Shown: in pieces, positions 1-7,836 of the stretch
Layout of the letters: each line of letters opens with the position of its first letter
How positions within the stretch are numbered: position 1 is the stretch's first letter
IMG/VR virus record: IMGVR_UViG_3300031994_000064
Coordinates: 1 to 64,000 of that record
Direction: 5' to 3' (one strand)
From: a virus
Lineage: Duplodnaviria; Caudoviricetes
DNA length: 64,000 bases
Notes under the pieces: generated by a model
Told to the model about the DNA's origin: nothing
What the model saw: only the letters and a program-made list of their open reading frames with translations
Database searches by the model: none
Made by a program: the position numbers and the translations under genes

Positions 1-516
1 GGCTCTCTCTTTTGCTGCTGCTTCTCTTGCGGCTTTTGCGGCGGCTGCGGCTCTCTCTGCTGCTCTGCTGTTGGCAGCGTCTAATAATGTTTGCATGCTC
101 TCAATGTGTCGTACTGCGTTCATTGTTAGTTCATCGTATCTTTTTCGCTCGTCTGCTGTAAGCTCTGTTGTAAGCGTTGCAAACTTACTAATAACTGTTG
201 TTATTCTATCTGTTAAGTTTGCTTTTACAACAGATACACAGCCGCGGGACGTCCCGTCTGCTTTGATACCTTGCACCTGCTCAACGTTGCAGATACGGAC
301 TTCACCATAAAAAACTGTGTAATGTTGTGCTGGCTTCTCGCCCGTCAATCTGAGTTCGTAACCGTCTAAAGATTTGATATAATCTTTTGTTTCTTTTGCA
401 TTCATGTTTACACATGCTGCTTTCAATTGTGCCTTGATAGTTTCAGGACTCAACACATCATTATTGTTTGTGTTGTTTGTGTTAACTTTGCTGCTGTTTT
501 TTTCGCTGTTTTTCAT
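1..516 (-). CDS. Hypothetical protein, partial (runs off left edge), Ala-rich coiled-coil C-terminal part
   Basis: Translated by hand; absent from the ORF track because no stop lies in the window. ATG at 516, MKNSEKNSSKVN...AAERAAAAAKAAREAAAKERA, open to position 1. Confidence 0.75.
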   Translation of the reverse strand, partial: MKNSEKNSSKVNTNNTNNNDVLSPETIKAQLKAACVNMNAKETKDYIKSLDGYELRLTGEKPAQHYTVFYGEVRICNVEQVQGIKADGTSRGCVSVVKANLTDRITTVISKFATLTTELTADERKRYDELTMNAVRHIESMQTLLDAANSRAAERAAAAAKAAREAAAKERA

Positions 517-2325: not shown

Positions 2326-2333
2326 TATTTTTG
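2326..2333 (+). promoter_or_regulatory. Bacteroidota sigma -7 element, early rightward promoter
   Basis: TATTTTTG preceded by an AT-rich upstream region, at the start of the long plus-strand gene run. Confidence 0.7.
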
Positions 2334-2339
2334 CATATC

Positions 2340-2707
2340 ATTTGAAAGCACAATGAATGCCGCCGGTGACAATAAGAGCGGAGGAGTGTTTCGGAATGGT
2401 CAGGACTCGGAAAGGAAGTAGTGAAGCCAAGTCCGAGGATGTATGAGAGTTCTTTGATTTACTGGCGTACTGTGGGACTGTGAAGTCCCACGATGAGTTC
2501 GGACGAATACGCTCCGGCGACCGATTGGCGGATGAGGCATCGCGCCAGCACGGAAAACCATAAAAGGATTCAGACGTGTCGATTTCCTTCTGTTAGACGT
2601 GTGATTCATTCTTCCAACAAACCCAATCGGGGAACGATTTATATGGAGCCACTTGGTGTCAAGCCTCGGATGAGGTGCAGTTCTGGGTTCGATTCCCACG
2701 GCTTCCG
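2340..2707 (+). ncRNA. Structured leader or ncRNA ending in a 62-nt tRNA-like mini-cloverleaf (2645-2706)
   Basis: Follows the promoter with no credible ORF. Hairpin GTGGGACT-GTGA-AGTCCCAC at 2472-2491; T-arm TGGG-TTCGATT-CCCA at 2684-2698; acceptor-like GGAGCC/GGCTTC. Confidence 0.55.
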
Positions 2708-2739
2708 CTGATTAACTTTTCACTTAAATCCAAACAATA

Positions 2740-3018
2740 ATGAAAAATTCCGAATTGATTTACAGATTTGTCGCGGGAACCGCCCGCGACGGACAGCACA
2801 CCGGAAGTGTGTCTGTCAAGGACAACAAACTCTATTCCTACGCAACCTGCATCGCGGAGCGCGTCGTGGACAAAATCGTGGTGAACGAAACCAAGTATTC
2901 CGTCACCACGTCCAAGCACCAAAGTTATCTGTATGGTGCTATCCGCCGCTACAACGAGTGCGCGGAATTCGTGAACGGCATAATGCGCGAGACGTACCGC
3001 CTTTCGGATGCCGTTTAA
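2740..3018 (+). CDS. Early hypothetical protein (92 aa)
   Basis: ORF with A-rich translation-initiation leader. Confidence 0.8.
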   Translation: MKNSELIYRFVAGTARDGQHTGSVSVKDNKLYSYATCIAERVVDKIVVNETKYSVTTSKHQSYLYGAIRRYNECAEFVNGIMRETYRLSDAV

Positions 3019-7762: not shown

Positions 7763-7836
7763 AGCCACGTAGTTCAGTTGGTTAGAACGGAGTGACATAT
7801 GTCGAGCGGTCGCGGGTTCGAGTCCCGCCGTGGCTT
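7763..7836 (+). tRNA. tRNA-like gene or pseudo-tRNA without a canonical anticodon arm
   Basis: Acceptor AGCCACG/CGTGGCT, D-arm GTTC/GAAC and T-arm GCGGG-TTCGAGT-CCCGC are canonical; positions 27-43 (GAGTG-ACATATG-TCGAG) cannot form the normal 5-bp stem. Confidence 0.65.

What the first reader, a model, noticed from the sequence alone, without database searches (positions are those of the whole stretch)
2340..2707. First early transcript starts with a structured RNA ending in a 62-nt anticodon-less mini-tRNA
Seen: 2645-2706 folds as a four-arm cloverleaf: acceptor GGAGCC/GGCTTC, arm CTTG-GTGT-CAAG, arm CCTC-GGAT-GAGG and T-arm TGGG-TTCGATT-CCCA. An alternative long-range fold pairs GAAGCC (2423) with GGCTTC (2700) and TCCGAGG (2432) with CCTCGGA (2664), enclosing about 230 nt that includes CCGATTGG/CCAATCGG and an 8-bp hairpin. 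The two folds are mutually exclusive, which suggests a switch. Known: small tRNA-like modules can act as RNase P/Z processing signals. Inference: an undescribed phage ncRNA, processing signal or decoy.
Basis: partly seen in the sequence, partly recalled or inferred. Interest (0 to 1): 0.7.

Follow-up and report, generated by a model that had tools for sequence, protein, structure and literature searches.

The report
Large phage RNA with tRNA-like tail
A phage from the sheep rumen opens one of its operons with a gene for a large folded RNA that ends in a stub of a tRNA. Related phages keep the fold through matching base changes, it fits no described RNA family, and its job is still unknown.

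Summary
The thing is real, but it is larger than described and folds differently.

Window 2340-2709 is a non-coding RNA gene placed 6-8 nt after a Bacteroidota-type TAnnTTTG promoter box. I recovered 10 distinct relatives (370-750 nt) from sheep, goat and cattle gut assemblies.

On five close relatives, 72 proposed pairs are 98% kept, against 33-48% when partners are slid. Eleven pairs change on both sides.

All members share three things:
- a hairpin loop with the invariant 8-mer GUAGUGAA;
- a canonical T-arm;
- an acceptor-like stem followed by CCGCU.

The conserved 3' module is an acceptor plus T-arm minihelix. Its short third hairpin is missing in two relatives. Its alternative long-range fold fails the covariation test.

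Rfam 15, ARAGORN, GenBank phages, IMG/VR and 185,000 prokaryote genomes gave no match. The region is not protein-coding, and the phage has no integrase.

Best reading: a new family of large phage RNA. Its tRNA-like end is probably a maturation or stability handle used by host tRNA enzymes. What the RNA body does is unknown.

This scan has met anticodon-less tRNA mimics in other phages before, but not this RNA.

The parts
2326..2333 (+). Promoter -7 box of the Bacteroidota type (TAnnTTTG). The RNA starts about 6-8 nt downstream, near 2340.
   Evidence: The same box stands at the same distance in front of the RNA in 9 of the 10 family members; L070 starts inside it. Reading it as a Bacteroidota promoter rests on established knowledge of that consensus.
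2340..2709 (+). Gene for the structured non-coding RNA (type A, about 370 nt).
   Evidence: Conserved in L007, L070, L191 and L332, with larger homologues in L005, L006, L192, L334 and L336. Substitutions are spread evenly over codon positions.
2406..2437 (+). Hairpin that carries the family's invariant loop. Outer stem 2406-2411/2432-2437, inner GG/CC 2414-2415/2427-2428, invariant 8-mer GUAGUGAA at 2418-2425.
   Evidence: The outer stem covaries: three pairs have changes on both sides (helix 1). GUAGUGAA is the only 8-mer shared by all 10 members.
2441..2453 (+). 5' strand of the long closing helix. It includes the start of the conserved GUUCUUUG motif (2449-2456).
   Evidence: Pairs with 2631-2644. 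93% of cells are paired and the changes are on one side only (helix 3). In types C and hybrid the same motif can pair with a different partner just upstream of the tRNA-like module.
2471..2492 (+).
   Evidence: Compensatory changes in L007, wobble changes in L070, L191 and L332 (helix 4).
2499..2517 (+). Conserved hairpin (7 pairs, one bulge).
   Evidence: 100% of cells paired, one pair varies on one side (helix 5). Its sequence is also conserved in type C.
2521..2630 (+). Central domain closed by helix 2521-2528/2623-2630, with an inner helix 2530-2534/2607-2611.
   Evidence: The closing helix is fully exchanged in L070 and L191: 5 of 8 pairs change on both sides and 100% stay paired (helices 6 and 7).
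2631..2644 (+). 3' strand of the long closing helix. It abuts the tRNA-like module with no spacer.
   Evidence: helix 3.
2645..2705 (+). tRNA-like module: acceptor-like stem 2645-2650/2700-2705, short hairpin 2664-2667/2672-2675, T-arm 2684-2687/2695-2698 with T-loop 2688-2694.
   Evidence: The three-helix fold is the unconstrained MFE in L007, L006 and L192, and is the MFE in L005 apart from one T-stem pair. Acceptor, T-stem and hairpin sequences differ between types yet stay paired. The T-loop heptamer is shared by all members. ARAGORN and the Rfam tRNA model do not call it.
2705..2709 (+). Invariant CCGCU tail at and after the 3' strand of the acceptor stem.
   Evidence: Present at the same distance from the T-loop in all 10 members. 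It is paired inside the acceptor stem in types B and C and mostly unpaired in type A.
2719..2724 (+). First UUCACU leader box. The same box stands about 21 nt before the start of most genes of this operon.
   Evidence: TTCACTWAA occurs 10 times against 2.1 expected, 7 of them on the + strand between 2719 and 6855. It is the exact complement of AGUGAA (2420-2425), the last six bases of the invariant 8-mer, but the predicted duplexes are only modestly stable.
2740..3018 (+). First protein gene after the RNA (DUF8033, PF26096); context only.
   Evidence: In relatives the RNA is followed by other genes instead.

Best explanation
Window 2340-2709 encodes a previously undescribed structured non-coding RNA of ruminant-gut phages whose promoters and start sites look like those of Bacteroidota hosts. 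It is transcribed from the TAnnTTTG promoter at 2326-2333 as the first unit of a rightward operon. Its parts, in order, are: a variable 5' hairpin; a hairpin with the invariant loop GUAGUGAA; a long helix that closes a variable multi-helix core; and, directly next to that helix, a tRNA-like minihelix (acceptor stem plus canonical T-arm, with or without a short third hairpin) that ends in CCGCU. Shown: the family exists, it is under selection for RNA structure, it is not coding, it is not a tRNA, tmRNA or any Rfam family, and it moves as a cassette in front of different genes. Inferred: the minihelix is a handle for host tRNA enzymes (RNase P and/or RNase Z, CCA-adding enzyme, T-loop modifiers). 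That handle would define and protect the 3' end of a stable RNA and set it apart from the downstream mRNAs. The RNA body would then act through its invariant loop on a partner not yet known.
For: Ten distinct members were recovered from independent assemblies. The type-A structure has 72 pairs, 98.1% of cells paired against 33-48% for slid partners, and 11 pairs changed on both sides against 0-2; 0 of 500 shuffles reach it. Type C shows whole-helix exchanges. The minihelix fold is the MFE, or within one T-stem pair of it, in four members with different sequences, and the T-stem covaries. The middle hairpin is absent in L334 and L336, so the acceptor plus T-arm is the conserved unit. There are no Rfam hits at E up to 10 (window) or up to 1 (relatives' loci), and no tRNA or tmRNA by ARAGORN. 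There is no codon-position bias. The RNA precedes DUF8033, a 62-aa gene or other small genes in different relatives (and joints). That argues against a gene-specific leader. Contigs of two RNA libraries from one sheep sample are identical to 2360-2573 and 2428-2687, and the latter bridges the 2644/2645 junction.
Against: No RNA ends were mapped. The RNA-library contigs could stem from contaminating DNA, and they do not show processing. In type A the closing helix abuts the acceptor stem with no single-stranded leader, which is unfavourable for RNase P. No CCA is encoded. The acceptor stem is irregular: 6 bp here, bulges in other types, and one unpaired base between the T-stem and the acceptor. 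The phage encodes no CCA-adding enzyme, Ro or RtcB that would point to a tRNA-type pathway. The function of the RNA body is not known at all.
Confidence: 0.5

Rival explanations
1. It is a cis-acting leader of the operon. One form would modify RNA polymerase so that it reads through the hairpins between the downstream genes, like the put RNAs of phage HK022. Another form would have its invariant loop pair with the UUCACU boxes in front of the operon's genes to control their translation or processing.
For: It lies directly behind the promoter and in front of a row of short genes, each preceded by a hairpin and a UUCACU box. AGUGAA (2420-2425), the last six bases of the invariant 8-mer, is the exact complement of UUCACU.
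Against: Loop-box duplexes are weak, -6 to -8.8 kcal/mol, and 8.7% of random phage windows reach -7. The box after the RNA has a mismatch in L005, and there is no covariation between loop and box. The hairpins between genes lack U-tracts and none scores as a terminator. A tRNA-like end is not needed for either mechanism.
Confidence: 0.2
2. It is a tRNA-mimicking decoy or sponge. The abundant minihelix would titrate a host factor that acts on the acceptor/T-arm half of tRNAs, for instance a defence toxin that modifies tRNA 3' ends, or a tRNA-binding protein.
For: The acceptor plus T-arm is kept while the anticodon part is dispensable. It sits at the head of what looks like an early operon, where phages often place counter-defence functions (inference from established knowledge).
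Against: No CCA end is encoded. The acceptor sequence is not conserved between types. Nothing explains the large conserved body and the invariant loop. No defence partner is known.
Confidence: 0.12
3. It is a riboswitch-like switch between the cloverleaf and the reader's long-range fold (2423:2700 and 2432:2664).
For: Both complementarities exist in this window.
Against: The alternative fold does no better than shuffles (174/500), and 4 of 7 pairs of its second helix break in variants. 2423-2428 is constant while the acceptor 3' strand differs in types B and C. 2432-2437 pairs locally with covariation.
Confidence: 0.03
4. It is a tmRNA-like or chargeable tRNA-like RNA, with alanine identity through a G:U pair in the acceptor stem.
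For: Type A has a G:U as the second pair of its 6-bp stem, which would be position 3:70 in a 7-bp numbering. The layout of acceptor, linker, helix and T-arm recalls the tRNA-like domain of tmRNA.
Against: The G:U is not conserved: it is absent in type C and elsewhere in type B. The acceptor is closed locally, not by the RNA's two ends. ARAGORN finds no tmRNA in any member. Rfam tmRNA matches only the 15-nt T-loop at E 0.06. No conserved tag frame exists.
Confidence: 0.03
5. It is not an RNA gene. It would be a small protein gene (ORF 2493-2711), a decayed tRNA or an attP core, or chance.
For: The ORF stays open in the four type-A members translated in all frames (L332 was not checked). The T-arm is tRNA-like.
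Against: Substitutions are spread 15/16/14 and 16/14/15 over codon positions, with nine indel columns. Type C has no + strand ORF of 35 aa or more. There is no Pfam hit. There is extensive compensatory pairing. The phage has no integrase. The acceptor and T-stem sequences differ between relatives but stay paired, which an attP core copied from a host tRNA would not do.
Confidence: 0.02

Closest known systems
GOLLD (RF01998) and ROOL (RF03087) RNAs
   Same: Large, elaborately folded RNAs carried by phages and prophages. They have a conserved part and a variable part, are tied to tRNAs, and have no known function. Some GOLLD RNAs carry covalently linked tRNAs in a linker (PMC12286853). ROOL was first found in rumen metagenomes.
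   Different: There is no similarity by covariance model at E up to 10 in the window and up to 1 in the relatives' loci. This RNA is smaller (0.37-0.75 kb). Its tRNA part is an anticodon-less minihelix fixed at the 3' end. It sits behind a promoter at the head of a protein operon, not in a tRNA island. The hosts look like Bacteroidota. Whether it forms multimers is unknown.
tRNA-like 3' processing signals: mascRNA at the end of MALAT1, and t-elements of plant mitochondria (Forner et al. 2007, PMC1920247, not read here)
   Same: A small tRNA-shaped element without a working anticodon sits at the end of a longer RNA, directly before the next transcript part. There it is cut by RNase P and RNase Z (established knowledge).
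   Different: Those are eukaryotic or organellar. Cleavage is not shown here. The 5' flank here is base-paired right up to the acceptor stem.
Anticodon-less tRNA-shaped stable RNAs of phages (T4 species 1 and 2 RNAs rnaC/rnaD, T5 RNA1), and the many phage tRNA mimics this scan has noted
   Same: Phage-encoded, tRNA-derived top half, cannot decode, function unknown.
   Different: Those are separate small RNAs inside tRNA gene clusters. Here the mimic is the 3' domain of a 370-750 nt conserved RNA.
tRNA-like domain of tmRNA
   Same: Acceptor stem, a short linker in place of the D-arm, a helix in place of the anticodon stem, and a canonical T-arm.
   Different: The acceptor is not formed by the RNA's two ends. 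There is no tag frame and no conserved G3:U70. It is not found by ARAGORN or by the Rfam tmRNA models.
put RNAs of phage HK022
   Same: A structured RNA made first from an early promoter, in front of genes separated by hairpins.
   Different: put is about 70 nt with two stem-loops. No sequence or structure likeness was found, and no antitermination evidence exists here.

Membership tests
tRNA (RF00005) | Score above threshold with a tRNA covariance model or ARAGORN | tested here: not met
   No tRNA hit on 2250-2800 even at E up to 10. ARAGORN finds none in the window region or in six relatives.
tRNA (RF00005) | Anticodon arm with a 7-nt loop, and a D-arm | tested here: not met
   The arm at 2664-2675 has a 4-nt loop and is missing in L334 and L336. 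The D-arm is not conserved.
tRNA (RF00005) | T-arm with a canonical T-loop stacked on an acceptor stem | tested here: met
   The T-loop is invariant, the T-stem and acceptor covary between types, and one unpaired base lies between them.
tmRNA (RF00023 and permuted forms) | Acceptor stem formed by the 5' and 3' ends, a tag reading frame, and G3:U70 | tested here: not met
   The acceptor is closed locally. There is no conserved frame. The G:U is not conserved. ARAGORN finds none. Rfam matches only a T-loop fragment.
GOLLD / ROOL | Match to the family covariance model | tested here: not met
   No hit in the window (E up to 10) or in L005, L006, L007, L070, L191 and L192 (E up to 1).
GOLLD / ROOL | Homo-oligomeric RNA cage | not testable with these tools
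   Needs cryo-EM or native gels.
tRNA-like processing signal (mascRNA / t-element kind) | tRNA-shaped element at the boundary between two transcript parts | tested here: met
   The module lies between the RNA body and the leader of the next gene in all members.
tRNA-like processing signal (mascRNA / t-element kind) | Cleavage by RNase P at its 5' side and RNase Z at its 3' side | not testable with these tools
   Only assembled contigs of RNA libraries were on hand. One bridges 2644/2645, so an uncut form may exist.
Y RNA-like (YrlA) | Match to the Rfam model and association with Ro (TROVE) | tested here: not met
   No Rfam hit. No TROVE or RtcB gene in the phage.
attP core / tRNA gene fragment | An integrase in the element, and a 3' tRNA segment copied from a host tRNA | tested here: not met
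   No Phage_integrase match in the complete genome. The acceptor and T-stem sequences vary between relatives with compensation.

The most novel reading that the evidence does not exclude
This is a third kind of 'ornate' phage RNA beside GOLLD and ROOL. It would be a stable, abundant RNA with a built-in tRNA minihelix, made first after infection, that takes over or shields a host process. Examples would be translation start at UUCACU leaders, a tRNA-end-directed defence, or an RNA assembly. It would act through its invariant GUAGUGAA loop.
Probability: 0.3. Interest if true: 0.8.

Novelty: new variant of a known kind. Interest (0 to 1): 0.62.

Why it matters
Large structured RNAs of phages (GOLLD, ROOL) are among the least understood RNAs, and their unexplained tie to tRNAs is a standing puzzle. 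Here the tie is fixed in one molecule. A tRNA minihelix is the obligatory 3' domain of a conserved 0.4-0.75 kb RNA with one invariant loop, at a defined place in the genome. That gives a compact system for asking what the tRNA part does for such RNAs: processing, stability, modification or partner binding. It also adds a family from Bacteroidota-type rumen phages, where hardly any phage RNAs are known. If the tRNA-like end proves to be a cut-and-stabilise signal, it would be a bacterial-virus counterpart of the MALAT1/mascRNA arrangement.

Tried and rejected
1. Rfam at gathering and at permissive thresholds gave only chance microRNA or sRNA rows.

2. GenBank phages by blastn: nothing for types A and C, and only a 42-nt T-arm match for type B.

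3. IMG/VR scans:
- A 15-mer around the invariant loop gave 62 hits, all chance; none had the second motif or a T-arm in place.
- T-arm plus CCGCT gave mostly ordinary or type-II tRNAs and no relatives.

4. The exact T-arm plus acceptor 22-mer gave no hit.

5. 185,000 prokaryote genomes gave two hits, both inside protein genes.

6. More distant DUF8033 loci (L002-L004) have no such RNA upstream.

7. Kin phages with 54-56% TerL identity lack both motifs. The single 9-mer hit lies in a coding region.

8. Pairing of the loop with the UUCACU boxes or with the CGCU tail is only modestly stable and does not covary, so it is kept as an idea only.

9. RNA libraries: no contig covers 1900-2283 upstream of the promoter, and contig depth was higher over the RNA than over the genes behind it. 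The tool warns that contig depth and uncovered parts prove nothing, so neither is used as evidence.

10. SRP RNA and 5S rRNA likeness of the loop region is a resemblance by eye only. There was no model hit, and the supposed tetraloop is not conserved in L007.

11. In L006 the hexamer GGACGG, complementary to the acceptor 3' strand, occurs four times. This could mean alternative pairings, but it was not pursued.

12. No covariance model was built. A model of the full RNA exceeds the calibration limit, and no searchable collection beyond the session's loci would have been reached.

Full report
**What is in the sequence.**
The window is the first 64 kb of an 82,983-bp IMG/VR virus record. Its "terminal repeat" is only 58 bp. 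The phage has a 2,036-aa tape-measure protein and a large terminase. It has no integrase, CCA-adding enzyme, Ro or RtcB.

Folding energy alone says little. The z-score is -0.42 for the 64-nt module and -0.39 for 2340-2720, and the cloverleaf is not the minimum-energy fold here. ARAGORN finds three tRNAs elsewhere in the window and none here. Rfam 15 gives nothing at gathering score, or at E up to 10 on 2250-2800.

**Relatives.**
The gene behind the region (2740-3018) is a DUF8033 protein. Homologues of it and of the next 61-aa protein led to contigs from JGI, ENA and Logan assemblies. An exact-motif scan of JGI metagenomes added one more. Ten distinct versions of the upstream RNA were recovered:
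- Type A, about 370 nt: the window, L007, L070, L191 and L332.
- Type B, about 690 nt: L006 and L192 (identical in L193 and L194).
- Type C, 570-680 nt: L005 and L336.
- A B/C hybrid, about 750 nt: L334.

Except in L070, which starts inside the box, each version starts 6-8 nt after a TAnnTTTG box, the -7 element of Bacteroidota promoters (the reading of the box is established knowledge). Genes in the operon lack Shine-Dalgarno sequences, which also fits such hosts.

By shared 31-mers the stretch or parts of it occur in sheep, goat and cattle gut runs of 13 studies. Pieces from sheep, goat and cattle runs were laid on the window.

**It is a structured RNA, not a protein gene.**
I took a structure from covariation-guided folding and counted it on the five type-A sequences:
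- 72 pairs, with 98.1% of cells paired.
- 33-48% paired when the partners are slid by 1-3 columns.
- 11 pairs changed on both sides, against 0-2 for slid partners.
- 0 of 500 shuffles reach the observed values.

The clearest cases are these:
- Helix 2521-2528/2623-2630 is wholly exchanged in L070 and L191.
- Hairpin 2471-2492 is changed in L007.
- Stem 2406-2411/2432-2437 has three pairs changed on both sides (L007, L332).

Type C shows exchanges of whole helices between L005 and L336.

An ORF (2493-2711) stays open in the four type-A members translated in all frames (L332 was not checked). Even so, substitutions fall evenly on codon positions (15/16/14 and 16/14/15) and there are nine indel columns. 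Type C has no + strand ORF of 35 aa or more, and Pfam finds nothing.

**Architecture in the window.**
- A variable 5' hairpin.
- A hairpin at 2406-2437 whose loop holds GUAGUGAA (2418-2425), the only 8-mer common to all ten members.
- A long helix, 2441-2453 with 2631-2644, which contains the conserved GUUCUUUG motif and closes a core of at least three helices.
- Directly next to it, the tRNA-like module at 2645-2705.
- The invariant CCGCU tail.

Types B and C keep the loop hairpin, the T-arm and the tail. All but L192 also keep the GUUCUUUG motif, and several short blocks are shared between pairs of types. Types B and C have much larger cores.

**The tRNA-like module.**
Across the types the acceptor-like stem, the T-stem and the short hairpin have different sequences yet remain paired. 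The three-helix fold is the unconstrained minimum-energy fold in L007, L006 and L192, and in L005 apart from one T-stem pair.
- A G-to-A change in L192 turns a U:G into a U:A in the acceptor.
- In L334 and L336 the middle hairpin is absent, and the T-stem differs again.

So the conserved unit is an acceptor plus T-arm minihelix with a canonical T-loop, not a four-arm cloverleaf.

The G:U pair that would give alanine identity in type A is not conserved.

**The proposed switch.**
On the same alignment it does no better than shuffles (174 of 500), and four of seven pairs of its second helix break. In types B and C the acceptor 3' strand is different, while the 2423-2428 segment is unchanged. I reject it.

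**Context.**
The RNA behaves as a cassette. It is followed by different genes in different relatives:
- DUF8033 in the window, L007, L070 and L006.
- The 62-aa gene directly in L332.
- Other small genes in L005, L191, L192, L334 and L336.

A goat-gut run holds contigs that join the tail to 3018 or 3105.

The tail is followed by a UUCACU box. The same box stands about 21 nt before most starts of this operon: 10 matches of TTCACTWAA against 2.1 expected, 7 of them between 2719 and 6855.

AGUGAA (2420-2425), the last six bases of the invariant 8-mer, is the exact complement of the box. The duplexes are weak, however, and there is no covariation, so this stays an idea.

**Expression.**
Two RNA libraries from one sheep sample hold contigs identical to 2360-2573 and 2428-2687. 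The second bridges the 2644/2645 junction. The tool warns that DNA can be present in such libraries and that contig depth cannot rank parts. This is therefore only a hint that the region is transcribed and that an uncut form exists.

**What it is and how it may work.**
Shown: this is a new, conserved, structured RNA family of ruminant-gut phages. It ends in a tRNA minihelix and sits at the head of an operon.

Inferred (about even odds): the minihelix is a handle for host tRNA enzymes that defines and protects the RNA's 3' end and separates it from the mRNAs behind it. This would resemble the tRNA-like elements at the end of MALAT1 or in plant mitochondria. The RNA body would then act through the invariant loop.

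Against a simple RNase P model: the 5' flank is base-paired right up to the acceptor stem, and no CCA is encoded.

The rivals are:
- a cis-acting leader (antitermination, or control of the UUCACU leaders);
- a decoy for a factor that recognises the acceptor/T-arm half of tRNAs;
- tmRNA-like charging, coding, or an attP relic. These last three failed tests here.

**Comparison with known systems.**
The nearest in kind are GOLLD and ROOL, large phage RNAs tied to tRNAs, sometimes covalently (PMC12286853). This RNA does not match their models and differs in size, genome place and host.

Small anticodon-less tRNA mimics of phages, such as the T4 and T5 stable RNAs, share the top-half mimicry but are free-standing. 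So do several other cases this scan has met (for example e1-4134619 and e1-5359642).

I class it as a new variant of a known kind.

Noticed in passing
window 7763-7836: A second tRNA-shaped element. ARAGORN calls it tRNA-Cys (anticodon ACA) and Rfam tRNA scores 46.8 bits. By eye the anticodon stem cannot pair, and a palindrome sits there instead. It is followed by an ATCACT box and the next gene, in the place where other genes of the operon have a hairpin.
   Followed up: partly
window 2719, 3062, 3316, 3568, 4651, 5084, 6847 (+ strand): TTCACTWAA boxes stand about 21 nt before the start codons of the operon's short genes (10 in the window against 2.1 expected). Their role is unknown; it could be a leader, a processing site or a binding site.
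   Followed up: partly
window 2493-2711: A 72-aa ORF that overlaps the RNA stays open in the four type-A relatives translated in all frames (L332 not checked), although substitutions show no codon-position bias and the middle of the 'protein' is not conserved. This is probably chance in a GC-rich structured region.
   Followed up: yes
window 1-58 and genome 82926-82983: The record's 'direct terminal repeat' is only 58 bp, which looks like an assembly overlap of a circular or permuted genome. The RNA's place near the 'left end' is therefore arbitrary.
   Followed up: partly
   Followed up: no
L006 about 583-901 (GGACGG at 706, 726, 852, 896; GACGGG at 583): The hexamer GGACGG occurs four times and GACGGG once in the type-B RNA. 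All are complementary to the 3' strand of its acceptor stem. Type A has two such segments (2423-2428 and 2629-2635). This could be chance, internal repeats or alternative pairings.
   Followed up: partly
window 2709/3105 and 2716/3018 (joints in a goat-gut run); L332 2470-2501: Relatives lack the DUF8033 gene and join the RNA's tail directly to the next gene. The early region looks like a set of exchangeable cassettes bounded by hairpin-plus-box units.
   Followed up: partly
window 2687: The RNA-library contig that covers 2428-2687 stops exactly at the last base before the T-loop. With one sample and assembled contigs this proves nothing. A stop of reverse transcription at a modified T-loop base would look like this.
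   Followed up: no
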